Below are positions 2,776-44,221 of a DNA stretch of 64,000 nucleotides, in pieces. The notes under the pieces are model-generated. The model did no database searches. It had not been told where the DNA came from and was given only the letters and a program-made list of their open reading frames with translations. A program made the translations under genes and the position numbers. This DNA comes from Octopus vulgaris. Taxonomy: Eukaryota. The DNA lies in assembly GCA_951406725.2 (NCBI GenBank), contig OX597833.1:9052001-9116000 (forward strand), in the 5' to 3' direction. Every line of letters starts with the position of its first letter. The first letter of the stretch is position 1.

Positions 2776-4499
2776 CTGAGTTAAGAATAAGAAAATCATA
2801 ATAATCAAAATTAAAATTACTTGAAACAGGAAAAAAAGCAGCTCGATGAGGCAATGACAAAGGAACTCCACAATCAACTTCAAAAGGATGCAGCAATGCA
2901 TCAGGGAAAGAAAATTATTCAATTCTATTAACCTCAGATAAAAAATTTACAAAACAGTTTTCAAATTTCAATGATACATTTGAGAAACAGGTAGAAAACT
3001 GTACATTTCCAGGTAGAGAAAAGAGTAGCAAGGAAAAGGGATTACTTTCAAAGGTAAATCTAAAGTTCCTAAATAACAGATGCAAAGAATTAAAACTGTA
3101 AATAAACTTACAATTGGATGGTAATAAATAATTCTTAAAGAGGTTTATCTCATGAATTGGAGAAAAAAATGCAAATAATCGATATTAACAGTTGGTATCA
3201 ATCACCAATAACTTAATCTCTCCCCATTGGCATTATGATTTTTCTCTCAGATTCTACCTTACAATCTGCAATATCTCCCACCTCTGATCCACAAACCTGA
3301 GAGCCATTTTAATTCTTTTGACTTCTTCCTTTGCTATTGTCTGGTTTCTTTCCTACTCCTTGATGCCCTCTTTCTTCCAGTCTTTCCAGATCCATCTCTT
3401 GGCCTTTATGACTCTAACCAAAAAACTATTCCACCACTATGTCACCCACTTTTGGGTTGGAACCTTACAAACCTGGTCCGTTACTCTCAGCAGATCACCT
3501 CGTAAGTCCTTCCAGTTGTTCTCTACATCTCTCTCGTGTCGTTTACCTCAAGTAATACATCTCTGAACCTACAACAACTTGATGGTTCTTTCAATTTCTA
3601 TATCCTCCTCCGTCCGTTTGTCTTTTGTCTCCGGGTCCATCTGAAGTCACTAATCTCTGACATCTGTTGGGTGTACATTCTTCATCAACGATAAACTATT
3701 CACAATCATCTGTCCATCCCTTTCCCTGGTGAGTACCAAGTCCTACCTGCACTCCTACATACAAATTAGACGAGGGCTATTATCAAGAGGGAAGAACATC
3801 AATTACTTAAGATGCAAAAGGCCATGGAAAGATCCAGGCTAGGATTATATATATTTATATACACACACAAATATTAGCATGTTCTAGTCTACATTTCCAC
3901 CATCCCCTCTTCTCCACATCTTCTCCCATACTAAGTTCCCAACATCCCAATTCTGTCTTTACAATTCCAACCACACCTTATATACTTTAAATTCTTTACA
4001 TTCCAACTCCTTACAAGCCTTATTCCTCAGAGAAATAATAAACTGAGGGCCAGAATGTCAGGTACAAGAGCAAATTCTTCATTGCAGAAACCAAGAAAAA
4101 AAAAAAAAGCTAGTGGTAATTGTCAGTCACACCCAAAGAAAAGAGGAGGTAATTTTTAAAAATGGAGTTGGTTTACACAAAGGAAAGCCTGGTCTTTGTA
4201 GGCAAGGGAGACAACTATGGATGTGTTTTAGTCTATTAGACCTCATCAGCAAGCTTATTCAATCAGTATAATTTGCAAAATTAAAATCCTCTGCAAGCTG
4301 CCTTGAAACCCTCTATCTTCTTTGTGTGTGACTTTGTAGTGGTCTGGGTGTCCTTCCCTACTTGGCAACTCTTGCTCTCACCTCTTCACATTCTTAGAGA
4401 AAAACTATTTACACCTTACTACCTTCTCGATTATTGCACCTGTATAGGCTAGGGGTATTGATAGGACTGAATCCAAATATCCAGTCTTTAGCGACTCGT

Positions 4500-13060: not shown

Positions 13061-15238
13061 AATCTGCAACACTGACTTCAGACAGCCACCTGATAACCTA
13101 TCAATCAGGCAACTTTGCTCACCAGATTGATTTCATCCTCACCAGACAGTGGGATGCAGGGTTGCTCTTAAATACAAAGACCCTCGCTGGTGAAGAATGT
13201 ACCCCCCAGCATAGACTACTTATTAGTGACTGTAGACTTGAGGCCAGAAGGATGCCAAGAAACAGATCAATCCAGAAAAGAAGAATTTGGAAGCTTAAGA
13301 ACCCTTCACATGGTTAGAGATTTAGGGACATCCTCACAGAACTTTGATGAGAGGGATGAGGAGCTACAGATTTCAGACATAGAGGGTAACTGGAAATTCA
13401 TACAGGACAGCTTACTGAGTGCCACAGACCAAATCTGCATCTGGTGCAAAAATCCCTTACAGACCTAGAGTAACGTGGTGATGGAATAATACAGTAGATA
13501 ATGCCATTAGAGCAAAGAAACAAGCCTGGAAGAGTGGGGATAGCAGGGAACTGTACCAGATAGCCAGAAGGGAGGCTGGGCGACAGGTATACATAGTCAA
13601 GGGAGATGCAGAAAATAAGAAGTTTGCCAATGTTCAGTGATGTGACGACCAACGAACTGAAGTATTTTGGATTGCAAGACTGTGAGAGAAAATTGTGATG
13701 TCAGGAGAGAAATGTGTCCTCGTAGACACTGGTACACTTGCTTTTAAGGATTCTGAAAGGAAAGAGGCTTAGAGAAGCCATTATGAAAGACTGCTGAATG
13801 TGGAGAATGAATGGGAGGAGGAGAGCCTGCCAAATGTTGACCCAGTAGAGGGGCCAGCTACCTGAATAGATAGCACCCTGGTAGATAAAGCAATTGAGGA
13901 TATGAAGTCAGGAAAAGCCCTCCGCCCATTAGGAATCACTGCTGAGATGCTTAAAATATCTGGTGGTGTGGGTCATGGCCTAGCTACTCGTATTGTAAAC
14001 CAGGTAGTTCACGAAGGAGTCATACCCAAGGGTATCAAACTACTGAATCAGGTAATGAAGGTTACAGAGAGGGTCATAGCCCAACTAATTAGGGAGAGAG
14101 TCTGCTTAGATGAGATGCAGTTCGGTTTTGTGCCAGGTAGAAGCACCACAGATGCTATATTCCTGATATGGCAACTGCAGGATCAGCCCTCAGCCCCCAC
14201 ATATTCATCATAGTCCTCCAGGTAATAACAGAGGAATTCAAGACGGGCTGCCCCTGGGATCTCCTCTATGCTGATGACCTTGCTCTTATAGCGGAATCAC
14301 TACTAGAACTAGAGAAGAAATTTCGGGTGTGGAAGCAAGGTTTAGAATTGAAGGGCATTAGAGTTAACCTAGCACAAACCAAAGTCCTAGCAAGTAGGAA
14401 GGCGAACACATCACAAATCCCTTCAGGTAGATGGCCCTGCACATGTGTGAACTGCCATGCTTCACAGCAGTGAAACATGGGCCATGACTGCTGAAGATAT
14501 GCGTGGGCTTGGAAGAAATGAAGCTAGTACGATCCACTGGATGTGTAATGTCAGTGTGCACACACGACAGAGTGTAAGCACTCTGAGGGAAATGTTGGAC
14601 ATAAGAAGCATCAGCTGTGGTGGGCATGAGAGACGACTGCGCTGGTATGGTCATGTGCTCTGTATGGATGAGGAGAGCTGTGTGAAGAAGTGTCACTCCC
14701 TAACAGTGGAAGAGGGAGACCCAGGAAGACAGGATGAGGTGGTGAAGCATGACCTTCGAACGTTGGGCCCCACAGAGGCAATGACAAAAGACCAAGACCT
14801 CTGGAGATATGCTGCGATTGAGAAGTAAAGTGAGATCACAGCCGTAGCCTACACCAGTGTCGCATAACCATCCCATTTAAAAAGTACCTTTGAATCGTCG
14901 GGCAACATGCCATGCTTGAGGAGACCTATTGAGTCAAGTAAATCAAAATCAAATGGAAATGAGAGTAATTAGCAGCACTGGTGACATGCGATAAACACTA
15001 TTCATTTATGTGTGGGTTGCTGCCAGAGCCACCTGACTGACTCCCCATGACGGTGGCATGTAAAAAGCACCCACTACACTCTCAAAGTGATTGGCGCTAA
15101 GAAGGGCATCCAGCTGTAGAAACTCTGCCAAATCAAGATTGGAGCCTGGTGCAGCCATCTGGTTCGCCAGACCTCAGTCAAATCATCCAACCCATGCTAA
15201 CATGGAAAGCAGACGTTAAACGATGATGATGATAATGA
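13061..15238 (+). mobile_element. Degenerate, 5'-truncated RTE LINE with internal deletions
   Basis: Fragments ICNT-F, QIDFILTR, MKSGKA..GITAEMLK, DEMQFGFVPGRSTTDAIF, LLYADDLALIAESL, HSSETWA and RRLRWYGHV are colinear with the intact copy at 41651..44221. At least three large deletions (near 14030, 14180, 14440). Ends with the 3'UTR and a (GAT)n tail. Confidence 0.92.
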
Positions 15239-15349
15239 TATATATATATATGCATGTATTTATGTATCGATGTCTTTGTTAGCATTGTATTTTTCTCTCT
15301 GAATCTTTTATCATCTCCTCTATGAGTTTCCATGTCCTGAGATCAGCCT

Positions 15350-22541: not shown

Positions 22542-24375
22542 TTAGTGACTTCAGACTTAGGGCCAGAAAGGTCTAGAGATGCAAACCAATATGGAAAAGG
22601 AGGTTGAGGAAGCTTGGTAAGGTAGGGTACAGGCTAGTCACCTGCATAGTTAACCAGGTCTTTCAGGAAGGTGTAATACCCAGTGATTGGTGTAGCAGCA
22701 TTATTGTTAGCTGCTCAAGGGTAAGGGTAATGCTTTAGATAGAAGAAATTACAGAGGCATCAAACTCCTGGACCTGGTGATAACAATTACAGAGTGAGTT
22801 ACAGCCTAATCAATTAGGAGCAGAATTAGGCTAGACGAAATGCAGTTTGACTTCATCCAGGGAAGAAGCGTTACCAATGCTATTTTCATAGTCAGGCAAC
22901 TGCAAGAGAAGTACTTGGCTAAGAATAAAACATTATACTTGGCATTTGTTGATCTAGAGAAAGCCTTTGATAGAGTACCCTACTGTGTGATGTGGTGGGC
23001 CCTGAGGAAACTAGGGGTAGGAGCAGTGGCTGGTGAAAGCTGTCCAGGCCATGTACAAAAACGCTGTCAGTAAGGTGAGAGTTAACTACGAATACAGTGT
23101 GTTTAGGTAGGGGTTTGTCAATGCTCAGTCCTTCATCTCTGCCTTTTTGTCATTATTCCCTCGGCCATAGCAGAGGAATTCAAGACTGGGAACTACAATA
23201 CACTGATGATCTTGCCCTCACAGCAGACTCCATATCAGAGCTAGAACAGAAATTCCAGCTGTGGAAGCAAAACCTGGAATCTAAGGGTCTTAAGGTTAAC
23301 TTAGCAAAGACTAAAGTTCTAGTAAGCAAAAAATTAACAAGACCCTACCTATTTCAGGTAGGTGACACTGTTTGATTTGTAGGAAAGGTGTAGGCAGAAA
23401 CTCCATACAGTGTACACTGTAAGCTATGCACACACAAGAGGTCCAGTGGATTAACAGGAAGATTATCAGAGAAGGTAGCGTTCGTGGAAGATGCACAGGA
23501 TCCATAAAAACTATAGAGATTTGGAAAATTGATTCTCTTAAATGCTCTGGTAGATCAGTAGAGGTAGTAGATAATTTCTGCTACCGAGGGAACCAAATTA
23601 GTAGTTGGGGAGGATGCATGGAGAGTTTGATAGCTAGAATAGGATGGAAGAAATTTAGAGAACTCTTACCGCTGTTGGCTACAAAAGGTTTCTCTCTCCG
23701 AGTAAAAGGAAGAGTGTATGATACATGTCTACAGACAGCAATTCTACATGGTAGTGAGATGTGGGCCCTGAATGTAGAGGTCATACAAAAATTAGAAAGG
23801 GATGAGGCCAGTATGCTCCTCTGGATGTGTAATTTGTGTGTGCATGTTCAGTAGAGTGCTAGTGTACTGAGAGAGAAGTTAGGCCTAAGAGGAATTTGTT
23901 GTGTATAAGAGACTGTGCTGGTTTGGTCATGTGATGTGGATGGATGCTGACAGTTTCATAAAGAAGTGCCATTATCTCAAAGTGAATGGAACATGTGGAA
24001 GTGGAAGACATGGAATGAAATGCTGAAGAACAACCTCAGGATGCCGAACCTTTCAAGCGAGAGGACAAAGGACTAAGATACCCTGAGCCTTGCTGTACTC
24101 ATGAAGACCTATTCTCTGCAGTAGAAGTGTTAAAACTGGTCCCTCTGGTGATGAGGATTGACCTATCATGTCAAAAGCACTCATGGTAGTGCCACATAAA
24201 AGCGCCCATGTGGCGCCATTTAAATGCGTATGTTTGGAATCATGTAAAAGTGTCTGTGGTGCCATGTAAAAGCACTCAGCATACTCTGTGAAGGAGCATT
24301 TGGCTGCAGAAAATATCAGCGTATCTTCTCTGACCCATGCAAGAATGGGAAAAAAATGGACGTTAAAACAATGAT
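22540..24375 (+). mobile_element. Degenerate RTE LINE in SRPRA intron 1
   Basis: MQFDFIQGRSVTNAIFIVRQLQEKYLAKNKTLYLAFVDLEKAFDRVP, YTDDLALTADS and LATKGFSLRVKGRVYD; ends in the RTE 3' tail (acccatgcaagaatgg...gacgttaaa). Confidence 0.9.
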
Positions 24376-25519: not shown

Positions 25520-27045
25520 GAGGCTTGGACTGAGTGATATCTCTTGGTCCCTAGTCCTTTGTCTTAAGGTTGGCCTTCAGTACTTTGTCTCCTCTCTTCT
25601 TTGCTCTTCCTCTTCCTCAAGTTCCAACCACTTTTTGTGATCAGCAATTCTTTATGCAATTCTCCTCATTCCTAGGCATCACATGACCAAACTAGTGCAA
25701 TCCTCTCTCTTGTCAACGACATCTAATTCTTCTTATGCCAAACTTTTCTCTCAATACATTAGTGCTCCGTTACACATGTACACTGACACTGCTCATCCTG
25801 TGGAGCTTACCCACTTCATTCCTCTCTAGTTTTCACACTTCCTCTGCATTCTGGGCCCACATCTCACTACCATGTAGCATTGCTGTTTGTATACCTGCAT
25901 CAGACAATCTTCCTTACACTCAGTGAGAGAGACCTTTGGTTGCCAACAGGTAAAAGCTCTCTGAATTTTCTCCATCCTATTCTTATTCTAGAAATTGAAC
26001 TTTTGGTACATCCTCATCCACTACTAATTTAGTTACCTAGGTAACAGAAATTACCTATCACTTCTAGAGTTCCTCCAGGGCATTTGAGGAAATCAGTTTC
26101 CCATGTGTTCGTAGATTTTATGGTTCCTATACATCTTCGACAAACAAACACTACTTTCTCTATTAATCTTCCTACTTTTCCATTGTACCTCTTGTGTGTC
26201 CATAGCTTGCACTCAATACACCAAATGGAAATCCTGCCTACACCTTTCCTACATATTGAGCATGGCCATTTACCTGAAGAGGGTAGGGTTCTGTCTGATT
26301 TCTTGCTTAGTAGGACCTTTGTCTTTGCTAAATTATCTTTAAGGCCCTTTCATTCCAGGTTTTGCTTCCACACATGGAATTTCTTTTCTAGTTCTATTAC
26401 AGATTCTGCTATGAGAGCAAGATCTTTCCATGGGTTTCCAGTCTTATATTCCTGGGAGGGTGCTGAGGTTCAAGCCTTGATGAGTGCCTACCTATGCACT
26501 AAATTCGTTACTGTGCCCATGGCTAACCCATACCTTACTAACAGCACCCTATACATGGCCTGTACAACTTTCACAAGCTATTCGTTTAACCCTTACTTCC
26601 TCAGCAACCACCATATCACAGGGTAAGGTACTCTGTCAAGGGCTTTCTCCAGATCCCTAAATACCAAGTACAATGATTTATTCCTAGCTATGTACTTTTC
26701 TTACAGTTGCCTGACTATGAAAATAACATCACTCGTGCTTCTCCCTGGCTGAAAGCCAAACTGCATTTCATCTTGCCTAATTCTTTTCCCAATTAACTGG
26801 GGCGTAACTCTCTCAGTAACTTTCATCATCCGGTCCAGCAGTTTGACACCTGTAATTTCTTCTGTCTTGTAGCAGCTGACTATAATGCTGCTACACCAGT
26901 CAATGGGGATTACACCTTCCTGAATAACCTGATTTACTATTTGGGTGACCATAACCAACTCTACCAGATATTTTAAGCACCTCAGCAGTGACTCCTGATC
27001 GACCAAGGGCTCTCCCTGTCTTCATACCTTTAATTGCATTATCTC
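25520..27045 (-). mobile_element. Degenerate RTE LINE in SRPRA intron 1, inverted relative to 22540..24375
   Basis: QIVNQVIQEGVIPIDWCSSIIVSCYK and DEMQFGFQPGRSTSDVIFIVRQL, with further RT, zinc-finger and C-terminal remnants on the minus strand. Confidence 0.88.
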
Positions 27046-29520: not shown

Positions 29521-29604
29521 GAGAGAAGTGGCAGTAGTTCCTACACTCACGAATCTCTGACCTTAAAGTATCGCTTGGACAATGAATACGAACTGGTATT
29601 CGTG
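29521..29604 (+). CDS. SRPRA: SRPRA coding exon 2
   Basis: ttattcag | ERSGSSSYTHESLTLKYRLDNEYELVFV | gtaagt; phase 0/0. Confidence 0.96.
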
Positions 29605-30842: not shown

Positions 30843-31036
30843 GTAGCGTATCAAAAGATATTACAACTGTCCTATGTCGACAAGTTTCTGACTGCCATCC
30901 AAGTGGAGTTTCGGAATAAATATAAAGATGACCTTCAACGGGGAAATATATCTCGAAATTTTGATTTTCGAGAAGATTTCAATCTTCTACTCAAGGAAAC
31001 GGTGGATGAAAGCATTTTGCAAGCCCAGAAGCCGAG
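30843..31036 (+). CDS. SRPRA: SRPRA coding exon 3
   Basis: cttacccag | VAYQKILQLSYVDKFL...FDFREDFNLLLKE...QAQKP(R) | gtaggg; phase 0/2. Confidence 0.95.
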
Positions 31037-31660
31037 GTAGGGTAAAATATTTTGGTTATTGTTATGGTGAAATCTGGAGAATTAAAGGTTGTGAGTTCAA
31101 ATCACTCATCATATTTATGTTTGTAAACCTTTGTGTGAAAAGATCATATTTAGACTCAGGAAAGAAGGGAATTTCAAAAGAAATGTTTAGTAATCAGTGT
31201 GAGAGATGAGAGAGTAGATAGGGTCCAAAGTAGACTGGAGACAACATGTGTAATGAAGAGAAGTGGTGCAGAGGATGGGAAGGACAGGAATTTGGTGTAA
31301 TTTACTCATAGAATGACTGGTCAGAAGTGGTGGTCATGACATGGATGCTTAGAGATGTAAATTGGACAAGAGCATTGTGGATGTATTTAAGTCAAGGGAT
31401 TTTAATTAAAACAACATTCTTAGTAGGAAATTTGGGCGAGAGGAGATAACCTCAAAATTTTAATTGAAATTAATATGAAGTATAGTAAGGACTGAGCCTG
31501 GTGTTTAGCAGTGTAGTGATAACTCTGGACATATTCCTGTTTTATTAGAACTCTTCAGGGCAACAGTCTAACTCTGTGTGGAGAAGCAAAAGTAGCATTT
31601 GTATGACTAAATACAGAGTAGAATTATAAATAGAGTAACTTGTTTAAGGTTTTTGTTTAT

Positions 31661-32032
31661 AGACACAGGCATGGCTGTATAGTGAAGTAGTTTGTTTCTC
31701 GACCACATAGTTTCTGGTTCAGTTCCAATGCAGGACACCTTGGGCAAGAATCTTCTACTCAAGCCCCAGGCTGACAAAGGTCCTGTGAGTGGATTCGATT
31801 GATGGAAACTGAAAAAAAGCTTATCAGGTGTGAAATGAATGTTACTGTCATCCAGGGGTGTCCTTTGTTTCCAGTCTTCAGTTAAATCATGTATGGCCTT
31901 CACGAAATGTTACCTTACTTAGAGACAGTTGAGGGTTAGTGACAGGAAGAGCATCCATTTGTAGAAAATCTGTCTCAACAAATTCTGTCTGGCCCATGCA
32001 AGTATGGAGAACTGGATGTTGAACCATGATAA
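31661..32032 (+). mobile_element. SINE family A with RTE-type tail
   Basis: ggcatggctgtatagtgaag...ggttcagttcc...caccttgggcaag...ggaaactgaaa, then gcatcca...cccatgcaagtatgga...gatgttgaa. Confidence 0.72.
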
Positions 32033-33102
32033 TACTACACACACACACACCTTAGAGCAACGAAATGGAAATTGTCATGTCAGAATGGTACAAGAGACTT
32101 AGTTTCACCAACATTGACAGTCTTAGGAATGCAAAGCAAAGGAGAAAAGTGGCTGCAAACAACCGCCTACACTGACCTGCAAACCTCATATTTGCAACAC
32201 CTGCAGGTTTCTTTGCTAGTTGTTGGCAGGACCCAAAACCCTTGAGACTGACAAAGAAAATGTAGGTTGTTGGATCTTCATCATATATATATAAGCAATA
32301 GTTATAACGATAGAGAATATGGAGACTGGTACATTCTCAAAACTTATTTGCTTTTATTCTATTATGTCATTGAGTATATTTTTATGGCTACAATGACTCA
32401 CGCACAGATTAGGGGCAGTTGCTTAATCAGGCATAATTTTCTGTGCAGCTTTGTTCGTTGTCTTTCAGCTAGCTTGGTTCGGAGGAATTTACAGCATGAA
32501 TGACAACTCCAAGTAATCATAGACGTTACATACTGTTGTGGTTAGCTGTAACCTGGAACATAACTGAGAGCCACTACAGTATCCACCTGGACTCTAAACT
32601 CACACTATGTATATATGAGCGTGTGTGTGAATATATATATATATATATTACTCATGCAAGCATGGAAAAGTAGATGTAAAAATGATGCACACACACACAC
32701 ACATGTTGGTTACTCTGTGTGTCTGTGCTTCTGTGCTTCTCTGCAAATTGCTGAGTCACAAGTCATGATTCTATTTCCTCTGTCACTAAATTGTCTTTTG
32801 GCCTTGCGCCTTTGAAGACTTATGGAATAAGAGATAACTTATATGAAGAACAGGCAACGCTTGACACTACAGAGGGTGTCTTGCTGTAAGACTGAAGCCT
32901 CAGTAATAGGTTTGTGTAATCCATATTAGCATGACAAAACGGACATAAAATTGAACCAAGAAATTGTCAAATAAATTGTGAGGGTGTAAGCAGTAATTAG
33001 TGAATAGATTGCCTATTAATACGACCATCAATTTATTATCACCAAGAGAATTAGGGTATTAGAGGAAGACCAGCTGACTGATGCAAAGCCTACCAAATTA
33101 CT

Positions 33103-33175
33103 GTACCAAATGATGAAGTCTTTTTGTAGTCTCTAATGTCAATGAGGGTTTCAACTTTTCTGACTCTGATGGTAC
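33103..33175 (+). ncRNA. Box C/D snoRNA, paralog a (copy 1)
   Basis: Terminal stem GTACCA/TGGTAC, box C ATGATGA (33110-33116), internal CTAA/ATGAGG (D'/C'-like), guide AACTTTTCTGAC (33153-33164), box D CTGA (33166-33169). Confidence 0.85.
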
Positions 33176-34190
33176 CTTAAAGACATAGATTGGTTGCCAA
33201 ACCACAATAGTGCAGGGGTTAAGCATATGGGTTATTGGCCTGGCAATTACAGGTTCAAACTAAGCCGCTTCCATTTTGTCATCTAATCTAGATTAAATCA
33301 AATTTTTTTACTCCCAGCTTCACAACATAACTCTTTTACTTGTTTCAGTCATTTGACTGCGGCCATGCTGGAGCACTGCCATTAGTAAAACTGTTTTTCA
33401 AATGTCTACATCTGTTTTTGTATGTTTGGTTCTTGCTGGTCTGATTAAGGAAAATGGACATTTCTTATTCCACGGTGAAATATGAGTCAATAAGAAGGAC
33501 TCTGTCAGACACAACACCGTCTTCCCTTTTCTGTAGCCAAAAAGGGTTAGGAAAAGTGGGGGGGGGGGTCAAGAGAGAAAAGAAATCAGGCGTGATGTAA
33601 GGGAGGTAACTGGTGCTTCTTCGCTACTTGACCAGTGAACCTAATCGGCTGCAAAGGCTATCATCGGTTGTCAATGGACCTGAGTGGAGTTGTAAGATAA
33701 TCGAATCAGAATAGAACCGGTTTATTCGTGGTTCACCAGGCTCAGCTATTTGCTTTACATATTTGTGAGGCTGTTGATATTTGGGGGCCAAGATTTGGAG
33801 GTAAATTGCCTGTTTGCTGTGGGGAGAAGATTTTTGAGATAATTTGCGTCTCCGTTTGGACGTCTAATTTGGAGGTTTTTTCCTCAATAATTTCTACTTT
33901 TAATTTTTTCCCTCCTGTAAAAATATTTTACTTAATAAAAATGGTATTTATGTAAGCTCGACCGACCTACAACCCCTTCTCCCAAGATAGCCGTTTTGGT
34001 TTCCGAATTGCAGTGATGGAGTGGATGTTGTTTGTGTGCAACTTTTTATGATATAAAATGTGTCCCCTTTGCTTTTGTTTTGTAAATTGTGCTTTGTTAT
34101 GGAGACATTGGGTTTCTCAGTGTAACAAGTTCAATGTTTTCTAGCTTTGAATTGTCGGGCTTTAATTCGCTAATCTCCTGCTGATGTGTT

Positions 34191-34263
34191 GTATCAAATG
34201 ATGAAGTCTTCTTCTAGTCTCTAATACCAATGAGGGTTTCAACTTTTCTGACTCTGATGCTAC
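34191..34263 (+). ncRNA. Box C/D snoRNA, paralog b (copy 1)
   Basis: Box C ATGATGA 34198-34204, same guide, box D 34254-34257. Inner stem is imperfect (GTATCA/TGCTAC) but an outer stem TGATGTGTT/AACACATCA is present. Confidence 0.8.
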
Positions 34264-34868
34264 CTTAAACACATCACTTAACCCATGTCCCCTTCCATAC
34301 GTTGATCATAGTTTTTCTTGATTAAATATGAAATGTATTTTTCCTCATTATTTCTATAATTATTGTGGTGGTCATATTGGTAAGGACGTGGTGGTCATGG
34401 CTCTGCTGTGGAGAAGATTTTGAGATAATTTTGGTCTCCGTATCATATCTGTATTAATGATGTGTACTTTTTCAAGTACACATATGTCTATCAAGGAGTA
34501 AAGTGTTACTGAGATCTGTAGTGCAATGTTACACTTGTATGCTGTTTTTAAGAACTGAATGACTGGTCATTTGGTCACAAACAAGTCCACTTTGTGAAAT
34601 TAATTTTTTTCTTGTGTACTTTTGTTGATAGTTGTGCAAATTGAAACATTTGCATAGACTAATGGCAATTATTTTACAATTGGATATACTTTGCTTCTTA
34701 GAGTTGTCAGCAATGATAATGGAAATGGCATTAGTTTTAGCCAGGTTAGCATTGATATAAAATTGGATGATAAAGTTTGTGCTTAGTATATCCCAATGGG
34801 GTTTAGATGCTAAAGGCTGTGTTCCATAAATCTCTGCGATGTTTCGTATATGCCTGCGGTGGTGTGTT

Positions 34869-34938
34869 GTGCCAAATGATGAAAGCATTCCAGTCTCTAA
34901 CATCAATGAGGGAGAAACTTTTCTGACTCTGATGGTAC
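34869..34938 (+). ncRNA. Box C/D snoRNA, paralog c (copy 1)
   Basis: Stem GTGCCA/TGGTAC (one G-U), box C 34876-34882, diverged interior but identical guide, box D 34929-34932; outer stem GGTGTGTT/AACACATC. Confidence 0.85.
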
Positions 34939-35737
34939 CTCAAACACATCCCAGCAAACAATGGTTTAGTTTGGTAACTGGCAAGAGCAGCAGTGCAGGC
35001 ATTGAATGGTAGAGTGTGAGGAATCCAATTAATTAGCAAAGTGAATTACTCTAGGAAGTCCTGTTGTGGTGTTCATTTGTGTACATGACTGAGAATAGTT
35101 TATAGTAACACGATATTGATTCAGTGGGTGTGTCAAATTAGCTAATGTTGAATTTATATATATATATGTATGTATGTATGTATGTGTGTGTGTGTGTGTG
35201 TGTGTATGCTGATGGAAACAGGAAAGTAGAACTCAGAACACAAATATATTTTTGGTATTGTTTATAATGGTAAACAATTCCAAATGTTTTTTCTCAAACC
35301 TTTTATAATGTGATACAAGTCTTTGGTGTAGCAATTGCATGCGGCTGCAGAAGGCTTTTGAACTATCTGTTATGTCGATGTAAGAATAAGTTATTCTATA
35401 AAGCCTGAAACATATGTACCGCAACATCCTTTGTTTCCTGTTTTTCATTTGATACATATATATATAATAAACTACAGTAATGTTGAAACAGGCGATACGG
35501 GAAAGTGCAACATGGATGAAAAAACATTTGTGGATTAAACGATGGGCCAATTCGATCAAGCGACTTGTGATTTGTCTGTTTGGTGTATTCCAGGCCCTAA
35601 CCAATCCTGGAAAATTGGAGGTGGGGTGGGCATGTGATTTTTGAATGCACTGATATGTTGTCAGTGGATATACTCCTCCTTTGCAGCAGTCGGTGCTGCG
35701 TCTAACATGACCCATCGCCTGCAGTTAGGACACCTCC

Positions 35738-36763
35738 CTCAGGTTTGTTGTCCAACATCATTCATAAAGTAAATTTGCAGGAACTGTGGTTGTTCATTTG
35801 TGCGTAACGGAGAACCAATGAGGTGATCTTGCCCTTGAACTTTGAACGTCGGTGTAAATCCATGGTCAACTATCTCCTTAGATGAACCAAACTATGTCAT
35901 TTGGAATGCAGAGTTGTATTGTCTGATATTCTTCAGAAAATCCTTTGACTGGATGGAAGTACCTTCCAGAAGATCCATAAGTGGTTGAGAAAGAGTTGGT
36001 AGTGCTGACAATGTTACCTGCCCACCTGAGCAGCACATCCCGTTAGTTTCCTTTGGAAATTTTAAAGCTTTGCAGAAATGACAATTTGAGTTTATACACA
36101 ACAATTTGGACAAGATTATCTTTTTTATAAGAATGGGATGGATTATATCTTTAAGCTGCTCCAGGAGTTGTGAAGAACGAATTTGTACGTAGTGTGTTTC
36201 TGAGAGCTGTTCTGTTGGACCCTTGTCTAATCATTAAAACAAAGTTGTTTTAATGATTCTGGATTAGGTGCTGCAGCATCCCTTTGCTGATCTTGGGGAA
36301 GTCTCATCTCACTTCCCTCTTGAGACCCCCTTTGATGTGCTGCAGCATCCCTTTGCTGATCTTGGGGAAGTCTCATCTCGCTTCTCTCTTGAGACCCCCT
36401 TTGATGTGCTGCAGCATCCCTTTGCTGATCTTGGGAAAGTCTCATCTCGCTTCTCTCTTGAGACCCCCTTTGATGTGCTGCAGCATCCCTTTGTTGATCT
36501 TGGGAAAGTCTCATCTCGCTTCTCTCTTGAGACCCCCTTTGATGTGCTGCAGCATCCCTTTGCTGATCTTGGGAAAGTCTCATCTCGCTTCTCTCTTGAG
36601 ACCCCCTTTGATGTGCTGCAGCATCCCTTTGCTGATCTTGGGAAAGTTTTACCGTCTTTCTCTCTTGCCTTTGGTCTTCTAAAATCCTCCTTGCTTTGTA
36701 CTTGTTTCTGGAGAGATTACGTCTTTTCTTTGGTGGGGTAGTTCTATCAATATTGTAAACCAA
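35738..36763 (-). mobile_element. Helitron RepHel 5' fragment (pseudogenised)
   Basis: CHFCKALKFPKETNGMCCSGGQVTL...FLKNIRQYNSAFQMT*FGS...TPTFKVQGQDHLIGS...PQFLQIYFM are hallmark N-terminal Helitron motifs, with a premature TAG at 35892. Preceded by R/Q/E-rich 23-aa repeats. Confidence 0.88.
36268..36647 (-). repeat. 69-bp tandem repeat (about 5.5 copies) in the Helitron N-terminal ORF
   Basis: Units start at 36268, 36337, 36406, 36475, 36544 and 36613; encodes RLSQDQQRDAAAHQRGSQERSEM on the minus strand. Confidence 0.95.
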
Positions 36764-37691
36764 AAATTGTGAACACAGAAGAAATTATACAGAAATCTCT
36801 TTTCGTGTAAGCAGTTGTATGTAATATGTCTTTATTTTTGTATGCAGAATAAATGAACCAAATAGAAGCACATGTATGGATTGCTAATTTAACGGTAAAT
36901 TTGCAGTTGCTGTGATAATTATTAACTGAGAATTGAATGGTAAATGTGTATTTTTCTATCCCTTGGGCCTGCTACCTCATCGTCTTTTGTCAAGGGTTCC
37001 CCCCTTCAGCTGTCTGTTATGTCAGTCAACACACATTGACACACCATTCCTGTAAAGACAGAAAGTTGCCGATGTGTAATGTTGCTCACATTAGGATGTA
37101 ATTAGAATTAAAAGTGAAACAATCCTATGTCACATTACAATATAGATGTTATTCTCTCATTTTTGACTTGTTTTACTGAATCAGTGCCACTTTTGTATTG
37201 TTTTAATCCAAATGGAAAGAAAAATGACATGTTGACACTGATGGGGTCTGATACTATTACCATGTAAAATCTGATTTGATTTGGTTGAGCCGTTGGAGAA
37301 TGCATTGCGAACAAATGGGAAGACAAAGAGAATTTTAGATATACAACAAGTACAGGTTCCAATGTTATGTGGCTAATGTACAGTTTTTGGTTTCGCTCTT
37401 ATATAGATTAATAATGAATATACAAGCAAATAAGGAAAATTTAAAGGTATGTATGCATAGATATGGAATGGCATATTCCCTATTTCCTACAATAAAATTG
37501 GTTGCACCCCACCAGCCACATGTCACCTTAGTGGCTACATGTATCATGGAATGTATTCACTGATTGTTTTCCAAAAGCGGTAGAGTTTATTCTGTTTGCT
37601 TTTGCGCCACTAGGGTCCATTTCTAAAAAGTATTTCACACAGAAAACAAACTGTTGGCATGAATTATAGTCTTCTAACCTCCCAAATTACT

Positions 37692-37764
37692 GTACCAAAT
37701 GATGAAGTCTTTTTGTAGTCTCTAATGTCAATGAGGGTTTCAACTTTTCTGACTCTGATGGTAC
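37692..37764 (+). ncRNA. Box C/D snoRNA, paralog a (copy 2)
   Basis: Identical to 33103..33175. Confidence 0.85.
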
Positions 37765-38757
37765 CTTAAAGACATAGATTGGTTGCCAAACCACAATAGT
37801 GCAGGGGTTAAACGTATGGGTTATTGGCCTGGCAATTACAGGTTCAAACTAAGCCGATTCCATTTTGTCATCTAATCTAGATAAAATCAAATTTTTTTAC
37901 TCCCAGCTTCACAACATTACTCTTTTACTTGTTTCAGTCATTTGACTGCGGCCATGCTGGAGCACTGCCATTAGTAAAACTGTTTTTCAAATGTCTACAT
38001 CTATTTTTGTATCTTTGGTTCTTGCTGGTCTGATTAAGGAAAATGGACATTTCTTATTCCACGGTGAAATATGAGTCAATAAGAAGGACACTGTCAGACA
38101 CAACACCCGCCTTCCCTATTCTGTAGCCAAAAAGGGTTAGGAAAAGGGGGGGGTCAAGAGAGAAAAGAAATCAGGCGTGATGTAAGGGAGGTAACTGGTG
38201 CTTCTTCGCTACTTGACCAGTGAACCTAATCGGCTGCAAAGGCTATCATCGGTTGTCAATGGACCTGGGTGGAGTTGTAAGATAATCGAATCAGAATAGA
38301 ACCGGTTTATTCGTGGTTCACCAGGCTCAGCTATTTGCTTTACATATTTGGGGGCCAAGATTTGGAGGTAAATTGCCTGTTTGCTGTGGGGAGAAGAATT
38401 TTGAGATAATTTGCGTCTCCGTTTGGACGTCTAATTTGGGGGTTTTTTCCTCAATAATTTCTACTTTTAATTTTTTCCCTCCTGTAAAAATATTTTCCTT
38501 AATAAAAATGGTATTTATGTAAGCTCGACCGACCTACAACCCCTTCTCCCAAGATAGCCGTTTTGGTTTCCGAATTGCAGTGATGGAGTGGATGTTGTTT
38601 GTGTGCAACTTTTTATGATATAAAATGTGTCCCCTTTGCTTTTGTTTTGTAAATTGTGCTTTGTTATGGAGACATTGGGTTTCTCAGTGTAACAAGTTCA
38701 ATGTTTTCTAGCTTTGAATTGTGAGTCTTTAATTCGCTAATCTCCTGCTGATGTGTT

Positions 38758-38830
38758 GTATCAAATGATGAAGTCTTCTTCTAGTCTCTAATACCAATGA
38801 GGGTTTCAACTTTTCTGACTCTGATGCTAC
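38758..38830 (+). ncRNA. Box C/D snoRNA, paralog b (copy 2)
   Basis: Identical to 34191..34263. Confidence 0.8.
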
Positions 38831-39438
38831 CTTAAACACATCACTTAACCCATCTCCCCTTCCATATCCCGTTGATCATAGTTTTTCTTGATTAAATATG
38901 AAATGTATTTTTCCTCATTATTTCTATAATTATTGTGGTGGTCATATTGGTAAGGACGTGGTGGTCATGGCTCTGCTGTGGAGAAGATTTTGAGATAATT
39001 TTGGTCTCCGTATCATATCTGTATTAATGATGTGTACTTTTTCAAGTACACATATGTCTATCAAGGAGTAAAGTGTTACTGAGATCTGTAGTGCAATGTT
39101 ACACTTGTATGCTGTTTTTAAGAACTGAATGACTGGTCATTTGGTCACAAACAAGTCCACTTTGTGAAATTAATTTTTTTCTTGTGTACTTTTGTTGATA
39201 GTTGTGCAAATTGAAACATTTGCATAGACTAATGGCAATTATTTTACAATTGGATATACTTTGCTTCTTAGAGTTGTCAGCAATGATAATGGAAATGGCA
39301 TTAGTTTTAGCCAGGTTAGCATTGATATAAAATTGGAAGATAAAGTTTGTGCTTAGTATATCCCAATGGGGTTTAGATGCTAAAGGCTGTGTTCCATAAA
39401 TCTCTGCGATGTTTCGTATATGCCTGCGGTGGTGTGTT

Positions 39439-39508
39439 GTGCCAAATGATGAAAGCATTCCAGTCTCTAACATCAATGAGGGAGAAACTTTTCTGACTCT
39501 GATGGTAC
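39439..39508 (+). ncRNA. Box C/D snoRNA, paralog c (copy 2)
   Basis: Identical to 34869..34938; lies about 335 nt upstream of the exon 4 acceptor. Confidence 0.85.
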
Positions 39509-39842
39509 CTCAAACACATCCCAGCAAACAATGGTTTAGCTTGGTAACTGGCAAGAGCAGCAGTGCAGGCATTGAATGGTAGAGTGTGAGGAATCCAATT
39601 AATTAGCAAAGTGAATTACTCTAGGAAGTCCTGTTGTGGTGTTCATTTGTGTACATGACTGAGAATAGTTTATAGTAACACGATATTGATTCAGTGGATG
39701 AGTCAAATTAGCTAATGTTGAATTTATATATATTGCTTTTTTTACGTGAAATCCATGGGTTGAATATTTCTTTTATTTTATGAATTAGTTTCAGTTTTTT
39801 TATTTATTTATCTCTGTTAATTGTTTCTGGTTATTTTTGCAG

Positions 39843-39949
39843 AAAGATGAAGAGTTATGAAGAATCCCAGAAGTCGAAAAAAACTGTGGCGTCGATGATA
39901 GAAAATAGAAAAGAAGACAAGAAGAAAAAAGAAGAAAAGAATAACAAAG
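39843..39949 (+). CDS. SRPRA: SRPRA coding exon 4
   Basis: atttttgcag | (R)KMKSYEESQKSKKTVASMIENRKEDKKKKEEKNNK | gtagga; resembles the conserved MKKFEDSEKAKKPVRSMIE segment; phase 2/1. Confidence 0.93.
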
Positions 39950-40324
39950 GTAGGATCACCCCCCTCCCCCACCTTCACCCCCACCCTCATCCCCTCCCCC
40001 TCCCCCACCATTATCGTCACCCTAATCACTCCATTATCAATATCCTCCTTATCTTCATGATGCTCTTCTATCATGTCTTTCACAATTTCATCTGCTTGGA
40101 ACCACTTAGAAACACTGAGAAATCTTTTACTTTCTGACCTTTGTAAGCTTTTCTCTCCCACAAAATCCATTCAGGCCTTTTCCGCTCTTCATACGTTTCC
40201 TGAGTCTTTATTGCTGTATGTTGAGGTTTCACTGAATTTGCAGGTCTTCAATTGGTTTAAATATTCTTCTTGCAGCATTTTGTGATTGGCAGGTTTTTGA
40301 ATTGTTAGCTTTGTCTTATCCAAG

Positions 40325-41040: not shown

Positions 41041-44000
41041 CATCATCATCATCATCATCATTTAGCGTCCGTTTTCCATGCTAGCATGGGTTGGACGGTT
41101 CTGCTGGGGTCTGTGAAGCCAGAAGGCTTCATCAGGCCCAGTCAAATCTGGCAGTGTTTCTACGGCTGGATGCCCTTCCTAACGCCAACCACTCCGTGAG
41201 TGTAGTGGGTGCTTTTTACGTGCCACCCGCACTGGTGCCAGCCAGAGCTGGCAAACGGCCACGAACGGATGGTGTTTTTTATGTGCCACCGGCACGAGGG
41301 CCAGGCGAGGCTGGCAACGAACACGAAACGGGGCGGTGCTGGCAACGGTCGCGAAACGGAAGGTTCTCTTACATGCCACCGGCACTGGTAACACATCTGC
41401 AATTTCCATTGATCGATTTCCATTGATCGATTTCGATTCTGATCCTCACTTGCCTCAATGGGTCTTCACAAGCAGAGTTTCGACATGCCACCGGCACTGG
41501 TAGCACATCCGCAATTTCCATTGATCGATTTCGATTCTGATCCTCACTTGCCTCAACACGTCTTCACAAGTAGAGTTTTGTGTCCCAAGAAGGGAAGGTA
41601 TGCATACGTAGGCTGGCTCCATCCCATGTAGAAGGCCACGGGTTGTGGACTCACTTGTCCTGCCGGGTCTTCTCGCGCACAGCACACTTCCAGAGGTCTC
41701 GGTCTCTAGTCATTTCCTCGGTGAGACCTAAAGTTCGAAGGTCGTGCTTCACCACCTCGTCCCAGGTTTTCCTGGGTCTGCCTCTTCCACAGGTTCCCTC
41801 AACCGCTAGGGTGTGGCACTTTTTCACACAACTATCTTCATCCATTCTCGCCACATGACCATACCAGCGCAAACGTCTCTCTTGCACACCACAACTGATG
41901 CTTCTTAGGTCCAGCTTTTCTCTCAAGGTACTTACACTCTGCCGAGTGTGAGTACTGGCATTACACATCCATCGGAGCATACTGGCTTCATTTCTAGCGA
42001 GCTTACGCATATCCTCAGCAGTCACGGCCCATGTTTCACTGCCATGTAGCATGGCTGTTCGTACACACGCATCATACAGTCTGCCTTTCACTCTGTGCGA
42101 GAGGCCTTTTGTCACCAGCAGAGGTAAGAGCTCTCTGAACTTTGCCCAAGCTATTCTTACTCTAGCAGTTACACTTTCAGCACACCCGCCCCCGCTGCTG
42201 ACTTGGTCACCTAGGTAACGGAAACTATCAACTATTTCTAGTTTTTCTCCCTGGAAAGTGACAGAAGTTGGTCTCAGAGCATTTTCAGTGTTTATTGTTC
42301 CTGAGCATCTGCCACATACAAAAACCATCTTCCTAGTTAGCCTTCCTTTGACATTGCTGCATCTCTTATGTGTCCATAGCTTACACTTGGTGCATCTTAT
42401 AGAGTTTCTACCTACACCTTTTCTACAGATCGAGCAGGGCCATCTACCTGAAGGTGTTTGTGATTTGTCTACCTTCCTACTGATTACGACTTTGGTTTTA
42501 GCTAGATTGACTCTGAGGCCCTTCGATTCTAATCCTTGTTTCCACACCTGAAACTTCTCCTCCAGTTCTGATAGCGACTCAGCAATTAGAGCAAGGTCAT
42601 CAGCATAGAGGAGCTCCCAAGGGCATCCTGTCTTGAATTCCTCCGTTATTGCCTGGAGGACTATGATAAATAGGAGGGGGCTGAGTACTGAGCCTTGGTG
42701 GACCCCTACCTCTACCCGGAATTCTTCACTGTACTCATTTCCAACCCTCACCCTACTAGCGGCGTCCCTATACATGGCCCGCACAGCTCTCACTAACCAT
42801 TCATCTATCCCTAGTTTTCTCATTGCCCACCAGATAAGGGATCGGGGGACCCTGTCGAAGGCTTTCTCCATGTCAACAAAAGCCAGGTACAGGGGCTTAT
42901 CTTTGGCTAGGTATTTCTCCTGCAGCTGCCTTACCAGGAATATAGCATCAGTAGTACTTTTCCCTGGCACAAACCCAAACTGCATCTCATCTAAACTAAC
43001 TCTCTCTCTAATTAGTTGGGCTATGACCCTCTCCGTAACCTTCATCACCTGGTCCAACAGCTTGATACCTCTGTAGTTGTTTGTATCTAGGGCATCACCT
43101 TTACCTTTGTAGCAGTTGACTATTATACTGCTACACCAGTCATTGGGTATGACCCCTTTGTGTATCACCTGATTAACTATATGGGTGACTAGGCTATAGC
43201 CGACACTACCAGACATTTTGAGCATCTCTGCAGTGATTCCTGATGGGCCTGGGGCTTTCCCTGTCTTCATGCTTCTAATTGCCTTAGCTACCACAGAACT
43301 ATCAACTCGGATAGCTGGTCCCTCTGTTGGGTCAACATTCGGCAGACTCTCTTTATCCCATTCATTTTCTTCATTCAGCAACCTTTCATAGTGGCATCTC
43401 CAAACCTCTCTCTTTGCATCCTCATTTAGCGCAAGTGAACCATCTTCCATGCGAACACACTTCTCTCCTACCACATCACGATTCTCTCTCACACACTGTC
43501 TTGCAACACGAAACACCTCCAGTCTTTGGTCCTCACGGCGCAGAACATTGGCAAATTTTTTCTTATCTGCTTCCCCTCTGGCTAAATAAACCTGTCTCCT
43601 AGCTTCTCTTTTGGCAGTCTGATACAATTCCCTGCTACCCCCATTTTTCCAGACCTTCCAAGCCTGTCTCTTTTCTCTAATAGCCCTGTCTACAATATTG
43701 TTCCACCACCACGTTATTCTAGGTCGAGAGGGGACTTTGCACCAGCCACAGATCTGGTCAGTGGCTCTCAGCAGGTTGTCCCTTAGAAACGTCCAGCTGT
43801 CTTCTACCCCCTGTGATGCTCTATCCCCTTCTACTTCGTCAGAGGCTTCAAGTAATATGTCCCTAAATCTCTGTCCATTTGCAGGATCTTTAAGCTTCCA
43901 GATCCTTCTTCTCCATATTTGTCGTCTTCTGGTTGTCCTCCTAGTCCTGATCCTAAAGTCACTAACTACCAGTCTATGTTGTGGGGTACATTCTTCACCT

Positions 44001-44155
44001 GGGAAGGTTTTGGCATTTATAAGCAGCCATCTCTCCCTTTGCCTTGTAAGGATGTAGTCAATTTGGCTGGTATGTTGGCCCGATTGGTAAGTGACTAGGT
44101 GGCTGGTAGGTTTCCTGAAGTTAGTGTTGCAAATCATAAGATTATTTGCATCGCA
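41041..44155 (-). mobile_element. Young 5'-truncated RTE-clade LINE in SRPRA intron 4
   Basis: Uninterrupted ORF from the endonuclease C-terminus (TYQSGQHTSQIDYILT, QHRLVVSDF) through RT (GKAPGPSG, YRGIKLL, QFGFVPG, AFVDMEKAFDRV, GVHQGSVLSPLLF, YADD) to the RTE C-terminus (RRLRWYGHV, GRGRPRKTW). About 600-bp 3'UTR and (GAT)7 tail at 41041-41061. No convincing target-site duplication. Confidence 0.97.
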
Positions 44156-44221
44156 AATATTTGTTTCATTTGATATTTTAGTTTGTTGTCTTTGTTTTAG
44201 TCCGTCCGACTGAAGTAGCAT
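41651..44221 (-). CDS. RTE ORF (partial APE + RT + PHD finger), 856 aa as called; first ~22 aa are host-derived
   Basis: From the ORF track. Element homology begins at CDANNLMICNTNF; the ATG (44219-44221) is in the antisense of SRPRA exon 5. Confidence 0.7.
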   Translation of the reverse strand: MLLQSDGLKQRQQTKISNETNICDANNLMICNTNFRKPTSHLVTYQSGQHTSQIDYILTRQRERWLLINAKTFPGEECTPQHRLVVSDFRIRTRRTTRRRQIWRRRIWKLKDPANGQRFRDILLEASDEVEGDRASQGVEDSWTFLRDNLLRATDQICGWCKVPSRPRITWWWNNIVDRAIREKRQAWKVWKNGGSRELYQTAKREARRQVYLARGEADKKKFANVLRREDQRLEVFRVARQCVRENRDVVGEKCVRMEDGSLALNEDAKREVWRCHYERLLNEENEWDKESLPNVDPTEGPAIRVDSSVVAKAIRSMKTGKAPGPSGITAEMLKMSGSVGYSLVTHIVNQVIHKGVIPNDWCSSIIVNCYKGKGDALDTNNYRGIKLLDQVMKVTERVIAQLIRERVSLDEMQFGFVPGKSTTDAIFLVRQLQEKYLAKDKPLYLAFVDMEKAFDRVPRSLIWWAMRKLGIDEWLVRAVRAMYRDAASRVRVGNEYSEEFRVEVGVHQGSVLSPLLFIIVLQAITEEFKTGCPWELLYADDLALIAESLSELEEKFQVWKQGLESKGLRVNLAKTKVVISRKVDKSQTPSGRWPCSICRKGVGRNSIRCTKCKLWTHKRCSNVKGRLTRKMVFVCGRCSGTINTENALRPTSVTFQGEKLEIVDSFRYLGDQVSSGGGCAESVTARVRIAWAKFRELLPLLVTKGLSHRVKGRLYDACVRTAMLHGSETWAVTAEDMRKLARNEASMLRWMCNASTHTRQSVSTLREKLDLRSISCGVQERRLRWYGHVARMDEDSCVKKCHTLAVEGTCGRGRPRKTWDEVVKHDLRTLGLTEEMTRDRDLWKCAVREKTRQDK

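What the first reader, a model, noticed from the sequence alone, without database searches (positions are those of the whole stretch)
33103..39508. Six-copy box C/D snoRNA cluster hidden in SRPRA intron 3
Seen: six 70-73 nt sense-strand units (33103, 34191, 34869, 37692, 38758, 39439). Each has a terminal stem, box C ATGATGA, D'/C'-like CTAA..ATGAGG, and box D CTGA. The three paralogs differ in flanks and interior, yet the boxes and the 12 nt before box D are invariant and stem changes mostly preserve pairing, which suggests selection on RNA function. Known: vertebrates usually carry one snoRNA per intron, while Drosophila and plants have intronic clusters. I do not recall SRPRA as a snoRNA host. 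Inference: a polycistronic intronic cluster needing endonucleolytic release, possibly via the outer stems (TGATGTGTT/AACACATCA), and co-expressed with the ER ribosome-targeting receptor.
Basis: partly seen in the sequence, partly recalled or inferred. Interest (0 to 1): 0.85.

Follow-up and report, generated by a model that had tools for sequence, protein, structure and literature searches.

The report
Six rRNA-guide snoRNAs in one intron
One intron of the SRP-receptor gene holds six copies (three variants, doubled by a duplication) of a likely small nucleolar RNA whose 12-base guide matches this animal's own 28S ribosomal RNA and is predicted to methylate a base not listed as methylated in six mapped model eukaryotes.

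Summary
Observation confirmed, with corrections. Six sense-strand box C/D units lie in the 8.8-kb third coding intron of SRPRA. They are three paralogs (A, B, C) doubled by a 2.07-kb duplication with 23 substitutions. Boxes and guide are invariant (0 of 33 columns vary, against 14 of 27 others), and paralog flanks no longer align. The D+5 rule predicts Am at 4103, equivalent to human A4376 and yeast A2799, among E-site pocket residues. A six-species table lists no methylation there. No Rfam family matches. A seventh copy on contig C12 has an A-rich tail starting 3 nt after box D, like a retroposed mature snoRNA, which is indirect evidence of processing. The family is not a transposon part (7 copies found). 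How the units are released is untested: no RNA data were obtained. Outer stems occur only in B and C and resemble known external assembly stems. Cryptic exons, or a long RNA capped by snoRNAs, remain rivals to endonucleolytic release.

The parts
33103..33175 (+). snoRNA paralog A, copy 1: box C 33110-16, D' 33133-36, C' 33142-47, guide 33153-64, box D 33166-69, 6-bp terminal stem, no outer stem
34182..34276 (+). paralog B, copy 1 (core 34191-34263; guide 34241-52; box D 34254-57) with a 9-bp outer stem 34182-90/34268-76; one inner pair broken
34860..34951 (+). paralog C, copy 1 (core 34869-34938; guide 34916-27; box D 34929-32) with outer stem 34860-68/34943-51
37692..37764 (+). paralog A, copy 2 (identical core; guide 37742-53)
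38749..38843 (+). paralog B, copy 2 (identical core 38758-38830; guide 38808-19)
39430..39521 (+). paralog C, copy 2 (identical core 39439-39508; guide 39486-97; box D ends 340 nt before the 3' splice site)
33089..35163 (+). duplicated block, copy 1 (A-B-C)
   Evidence: 97.6% over 2079 columns; 23 substitutions, 4 indels
37678..39733 (+). duplicated block, copy 2 (A-B-C)
35452..37343 (.). dispersed repeat between the two blocks, about 80% identical to dozens of copies elsewhere; holds a 69-bp tandem array. 'Helitron-like' is a recalled label; Pfam gave no hit
31037..39842 (+). SRPRA third coding intron (8806 nt), host of all six units
30843..31036 (+). SRPRA coding exon 3
   Evidence: PF04086 E 3.6e-15
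39843..39949 (+). SRPRA coding exon 4 (3' end read from the GT at 39950)
   Evidence: PF04086, E 0.027
34312..34379 (+). candidate 68-nt cryptic exon between B and C (AG before, GTAAGG after; copy at 38882-38949); unproven, chance-level signal

Best explanation
SRPRA intron 3 carries three related box C/D units, doubled to six by a 2-kb duplication, whose invariant 12-nt element pairs with this genome's 28S rRNA 4100-4111 and is predicted to guide fibrillarin to 2'-O-methylate A4103 (human A4376, yeast A2799). Shown: boxes, copy structure, conservation, complementarity and site mapping. Inferred from established C/D biology: transcription with SRPRA, core-protein assembly on each unit, and trimming to about 63-70-nt RNAs. 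Because five of the six units lie far from the branch point, assembly is likely splicing-independent, helped by the external stems of B and C. The units are likely freed by a cut somewhere in the long spacers followed by exonuclease trimming. I put that release step at about 0.45, against about 0.9 for snoRNA identity and 0.8 for the target.
For: 12 Watson-Crick pairs from position -2 before box D; the next-best anchored duplex scores 8. Background: 16 other hits among 63,989 window 12-mers, so about 5e-4 for two registers. Invariance starts exactly where complementarity starts. 0 of 33 box/guide columns vary against 14 of 27 others, Fisher p 1.2e-6, while 300-nt flanks give local scores of only 16-22. 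The scan control gave 0 hits on the minus strand and at most 1 in 30 shuffles. The target is identical in two tandem rDNA units. Register to human numbering: 18 of 19 sites match at one offset, next best 10. The C12 copy matches C from 6 nt before box C to 3 nt after box D (92%) and is followed by an A-rich tract inside a 16-nt direct repeat; this fits mature C/D ends (PMC4053766) and type-1 snoRNA retroposons (PMC1687206).
Against: No RNA evidence from this locus. No Rfam family reaches its cut-off; only generic C/D hits at E 1-8. The predicted site is not a listed methylation site in the six species tabulated, so conservation lends it no support. The D' element varies and has no duplex better than 8-9 nt with G-U pairs to rRNA, the rDNA spacers, U2 or U6. 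A has no outer stem and B has a broken inner pair. The 5' end of the C12 copy overlaps a SINE head by 4 nt, and 13 non-A bases separate its tail from the direct repeat. D' and C' columns were picked partly because they looked conserved, which inflates the Fisher test somewhat. No nuclease site was identified.
Confidence: 0.7

Rival explanations
1. Same snoRNAs and target, but one per intron after all: cryptic non-coding exons (for example 34312-34379) split the intron in a minor, decay-prone SRPRA isoform, and ordinary debranching plus trimming frees the units.
For: An AG acceptor lies 54-57 nt after box D of B, with a GTAAGG donor 68 nt later, in both blocks; acceptors lie 122 and 179 nt after A. 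One per intron is the animal norm (PMC11028025; PMC1821038; PMC3089462).
Against: The scan was a crude pyrimidine count; about one such donor is expected by chance in this much sequence (my estimate). No acceptor was found within 260 nt after C, and no strong donor between A and B.
Confidence: 0.3
2. No internal cut: exonucleases stop at the first and last assembled units, so the intron yields long RNAs capped by snoRNAs (up to 6.4 kb, A1 to C2), and a free snoRNA only when a single unit assembles.
For: This is the described outcome when two snoRNAs share an intron (sno-lncRNAs; PMC11028025, passages). No nuclease signal was found here.
Against: All three paralogs, the internal one included, keep a perfect rRNA guide. 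The C12 copy ends 3 nt after box D and carries no host flank, though its 5' end is ambiguous.
Confidence: 0.15
3. The RNAs bind 28S 4100-4111 as folding chaperones and do not leave a methyl group.
For: The site is not listed as methylated in Drosophila, human, yeast, Arabidopsis, Xenopus or Dictyostelium. In Drosophila, 31 of 75 sites predicted from complementarity were not confirmed (PMC11014333, section 19).
Against: The duplex has canonical geometry, adjacent to a perfect box D, and the boxes are intact.
Confidence: 0.12
4. The doubling from three to six is an assembly artefact (two haplotypes joined in tandem); the animal has three units.
For: The blocks differ by only 23 substitutions in 2.07 kb, a level allelic variation could give (recalled), and block 1 ends in a microsatellite.
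Against: A 2.5-kb unrelated spacer separates the blocks, and neither flanking exon is duplicated. No reads could be examined.
Confidence: 0.15
5. The units are fragments of a mobile repeat or dead copies with no RNA function.
For: The intron is rich in SINEs and dispersed repeats; one copy has moved to C12.
Against: Only 7 copies were found genome-wide; the 5 other guide+box D matches lack box C. The A-B spacer occurs only in the two blocks. Variation avoids the boxes and guide.
Confidence: 0.05

Closest known systems
Box C/D methylation-guide snoRNAs (generic; intron-encoded animal type)
   Same: RUGAUGA and CUGA boxes, internal D'/C', terminal stem, about 70 nt, 12-nt antisense element before box D, sense position in an intron of a translation-related host gene (definition: PMC11028025).
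   Different: No Rfam family matches; six units share one homology-defined intron; none is closer than 340 nt to the 3' splice site, against the preferred 50 nt before the branch point (PMC5519232).
SNORD60 / snR48 (Gm4370, Gm4368) and SNORD1 / snR38 (Gm4392)
   Same: They guide methylation in the same 25-nt stretch of 28S domain V (Table S4 of PMC11014333).
   Different: The predicted target here is A4376, between them. The SNORD60 model did not hit this locus; its one genome match was below cut-off.
Drosophila intronic snoRNA clusters; rice intronic clusters
   Same: Several related snoRNAs within one host intron.
   Different: The Drosophila clusters are H/ACA, while its C/D RNAs are one per intron (PMC3089462). 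Rice clusters were seen only as a reference title. Units here are spread 0.7-2.8 kb apart among repeats.
sno-lncRNAs (SLERT, LNC-SNO49AB)
   Same: More than one snoRNA in a single intron (PMC11028025).
   Different: Six units rather than two, all with the same rRNA guide; a long capped product is not shown here.
Type-1 snoRNA retroposons (snoRTs)
   Same: The C12 copy has snoRNA sequence, 3 extra bases, an A-rich tail and a 16-nt direct repeat (PMC1687206).
   Different: The passages read give H/ACA examples in mammals; this copy is C/D type and shares its direct repeat with a head-to-head SINE.

Membership tests
Box C/D guide snoRNA | Box C (RUGAUGA) near the 5' end and box D (CUGA) near the 3' end | tested here: met
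   6 of 6 units, 57-60 nt from box C start to box D end
Box C/D guide snoRNA | Terminal stem closing the C/D motif | tested here: met
   6 of 6 pairs in A and C (one G-U), 5 of 6 in B
Box C/D guide snoRNA | Internal D' and C' boxes | tested here: met
   CTAA and ATGAGG, 5 nt apart, invariant; degenerate, as usual
Box C/D guide snoRNA | Antisense element of 10 nt or more to rRNA/snRNA next to box D or D' | tested here: met
   12 WC pairs to own 28S 4100-4111; none for D' (U1, U4, U5, 5S and minor snRNAs not tested)
Box C/D guide snoRNA | Accumulates as a discrete RNA bound by fibrillarin, NOP56, NOP58, Snu13 | not testable with these tools
   No RNA reads obtained; only indirect support from the C12 copy
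Box C/D guide snoRNA | Directs 2'-O-methylation at the D+5 nucleotide | not testable with these tools
   Prediction only
Any curated Rfam C/D family (incl. SNORD60, SNORD102, snoU25) | Score at or above the family's gathering threshold | tested here: not met
   0 of 4227 families; best C/D hits 15-22 bits against cut-offs of 30-75
Polycistronic intronic snoRNA cluster | Several snoRNAs within one intron | tested here: inconclusive
   True for the protein-coding splice path; cryptic exons not excluded
Polycistronic intronic snoRNA cluster | Endonucleolytic separation of the units | not testable with these tools
   No data; outer stems absent in A
High-copy transposon part | Many dispersed copies inside a larger repeat | tested here: not met
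   7 copies; paralog flanks unrelated; A-B spacer found twice only
Type-1 snoRT (C12 copy) | Mature-like ends, A-rich tail, target-site duplication | tested here: inconclusive
   3' end, tail and 16-nt repeat present; 5' end overlaps a SINE that shares the repeat

The most novel reading that the evidence does not exclude
This animal lineage has evolved and amplified a new C/D guide that methylates an E-site adenosine (human A4376 equivalent) left unmodified in mapped model eukaryotes, and it frees six C/D snoRNAs from one intron by endonucleolytic cutting, a plant- or yeast-like route that breaks the animal one-per-intron rule for C/D RNAs.
Probability: 0.3. Interest if true: 0.7.

Novelty: new variant of a known kind. 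Interest (0 to 1): 0.48.

Why it matters
It predicts a specific, cheaply testable rRNA methylation in the stretch that forms the large-subunit E-site pocket (yeast G2793, G2794 and A2802 line it; PMC6451132, passages), at a position absent from a six-species map. It also offers a natural test of how an animal handles several C/D snoRNAs in one intron: cutting, hidden exons or long capped RNAs. Paralogs, a recent doubling and a probable retrocopy show both routes of snoRNA spread in one small family. The RNA class and chemistry are ordinary, and species-specific methylation sites are common in the same table, which limits the surprise.

Tried and rejected
Rfam at gathering scores: nothing in the window or in L007, L038, L039. 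D' targets in 28S, 18S, 5.8S, the whole rDNA unit, U2 and U6: nothing above chance. A second pairing of A and B to 28S 376-387 through an internal CTGA (10 WC pairs): set aside, because C and the C12 copy lack it, it overlaps the main guide, it has no terminal stem, and the table lists no site there. Further copies in other SRPRA introns: none; a model built from the four sequences finds only the six units in the window. Five other genome matches to guide+box D have no box C. A pattern search for a Gm4370 guide found nothing but is uninformative: one position did not fit this genome's rRNA. A search for a Gm4392 guide gave 2 matches against 2 in the control, neither with a clear box C, so whether octopus-type genomes cluster other snoRNAs is open. 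Pfam did not name the spacer repeat. Literature: snoRNA + SRPRA gave 2 papers and snoRNA + cephalopod 29 (20 listed); I saw listings only, none about this locus. A search for Am2799/Am4376/A2799 and similar terms gave 224 papers, and the 20 listed were irrelevant. A trypanosome methylation paper was not held. Five look-ups of earlier findings: four returned nothing. No related animal genomes were available, so conservation in other molluscs is untested.
Full report
Setting. The window is G000:C20:9052001-9116000 in a 2.8-Gb genome. No call names the organism; 'octopus-like' is my recollection from its SINEs and size. The + strand carries SRPRA: exons at 29521-29604, 30843-31036 and from 39843 hit Pfam SRP-alpha_N at consecutive profile positions, and later exons hit the SRP54 GTPase (5 of 6 exon queries hit, the first coding exon did not, two hits were below the curated cut-off). 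The intron between coding exons 3 and 4 runs 31037-39842 with GT..AG ends and the frame kept. Untranslated upstream exons are not excluded, so 'intron 3' means third coding intron.

Observation. They are three paralogs repeated by a duplication, 33089-35163 = 37678-39733, with 23 substitutions and 4 indels, none inside the units (p about 0.05, weak). Between the blocks lies a dispersed repeat about 80% identical to dozens of other copies, so it appears older than the doubling. Among A, B and C, 0 of 33 box and guide columns vary against 14 of 27 others (p 1.2e-6), and 300-nt flanks give no real alignment. A scan for box C, box D and a 10-nt rRNA-complementary guide found 10 hits on +, all in the six units, 0 on -, and 0.17 on average in 30 shuffles. 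Stems: A and C have six terminal pairs (one G-U in C), B has five; a 9-bp outer stem is present in B and C, not A. With four related sequences the covariation counts carry little weight.

Target. I located a tandem rDNA array on C20, fetched one unit and delimited 28S, 18S and 5.8S with Rfam. The 12 nt ending one base before box D form 12 Watson-Crick pairs with 28S 4100-4111 in all units; the next-best anchored duplex scores 8. Of 63,989 window 12-mers, 22 are complementary to the rRNA and six of them are these guides. The run of invariant bases starts exactly where pairing starts. The D+5 rule (established knowledge) points to A4103. To number it I used 19 of the 20 rows of Table S4 of PMC11014333 between human 4342 and 4536 (one row lacks a human number): 18 of 19 bases match at offset 273, next best 10. 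The site is human A4376, yeast A2799, Drosophila A3332. That table runs Gm4368, Gm4370, Gm4392 with nothing between, for Drosophila, human, yeast, Arabidopsis, Xenopus and Dictyostelium (supplement; Table 1 of PMC8817022 agrees). I did not see maps for other species. Yeast G2793, G2794 and A2802 line the E-site pocket (PMC6451132, passages); A2799 is not named there, so its closeness is inferred from sequence position. Against over-reading: in Drosophila 31 of 75 complementarity-predicted sites were not confirmed. The D' element varies and has no convincing target in rRNA, spacers, U2 or U6.

Copy number and the C12 copy. Two DNA searches and one pattern search each gave 7 copies: these six and one at C12:30077590-30077655; such searches are lower bounds. 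A looser pattern gave 12 matches (control 3), and the 5 extra lack box C. The C12 copy is 92% identical to C from 6 nt before box C to 3 nt after box D. An A-rich tract follows at once; a SINE abuts its 5' end head to head; a 16-nt direct repeat brackets both. Mature human C/D RNAs keep 4-5 nt before box C and 2-5 nt after box D (PMC4053766, passages), and type-1 snoRNA retroposons have 0-9 extra bases, an A-rich tail and a target duplication (PMC1687206, passages). I read the copy as a retroposed processed RNA (about 0.7). Its 5' end is ambiguous because 4 nt also fit the SINE head, and its differences from C all avoid boxes and guide, so it may come from a lost paralog or be functional itself. 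No host gene was evident among ORFs in 40 kb around it (visual inspection only).

Mechanism. Shown: anatomy, conservation, complementarity, position in a sense intron. Inferred: transcription with SRPRA, snoRNP assembly and methylation. Human C/D RNAs prefer a position 50 nt before the branch point, and long external stems make assembly splicing-independent (PMC5519232, one passage). Here the nearest unit ends 340 nt before the 3' splice site, and B and C have such stems, so the stems need no nuclease role. Release is the open step. Exonucleases alone would leave a long RNA capped by snoRNAs (PMC11028025, passages and Introduction part 1). Since all three paralogs keep a perfect guide, I favour separation by a cut in the spacers followed by trimming (about 0.45), then cryptic exons (0.3; a 68-nt candidate between B and C, chance-level), then long capped RNAs or one survivor per intron (0.15). 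No RNA data were available to decide.

Comparison and novelty. It works like an ordinary C/D methylation guide and meets every sequence-level criterion tested, but belongs to no Rfam family. Animals mostly follow one snoRNA per intron; Drosophila intronic clusters are H/ACA (PMC3089462, passages). Searches for snoRNA with SRPRA and with cephalopod listed nothing on this locus; I saw listings only, and the library lacks most subscription journals and bioRxiv supplements, so absence from print is not established. Two features go beyond a routine new member: an unlisted target and six C/D units in one homology-defined animal intron. Both are predictions.

Verdict. Real feature; snoRNA identity about 0.9; target about 0.8; endonucleolytic release about 0.45; doubling possibly an assembly artefact (0.15). 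New variant of a known kind; interest 0.48.

Noticed in passing
window 41651-44221 (-): An 856-aa stop-free reverse-transcriptase ORF (RTE-like LINE by recall) in the next SRPRA intron, with decayed relatives at 13062-15239, 22615-24009 and 25566-27044; a candidate source of the machinery for SINE and snoRNA retroposition (inference).
   Followed up: no
G000, 38 places: A 17-nt 28S motif occurs in a 7-unit tandem array on C20 (18.3-kb period) and at 31 other places; L008-L010 keep the rRNA context and L011 is cut just before it, suggesting many dispersed 28S fragments.
   Followed up: partly
L007 1430-1810 (C12): The snoRNA copy and a SINE sit head to head inside one 16-nt direct repeat, with a 4-nt overlap at the junction; possibly a two-RNA co-insertion.
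   Followed up: partly
window 36268-36667: 69-bp tandem array, open in several frames, inside the dispersed repeat between the duplicated blocks; no Pfam hit.
   Followed up: partly
L039 about 1410-1520 (C7:89397600, - strand): An element complementary to 28S at the Gm4392 site followed by CTGA and a possible short stem, without a clear box C; could be a diverged SNORD1/snR38 guide or chance.
   Followed up: partly
L019-L020 (C20 rDNA unit): Expanded rRNAs: 18S about 2.5 kb, 28S about 4.9 kb.
   Followed up: no
window 33148-33159 and 34236-34247: A and B also pair over 12 nt (one G-U) with 28S 376-387 ahead of an internal CTGA; absent in C; probably chance.
   Followed up: yes
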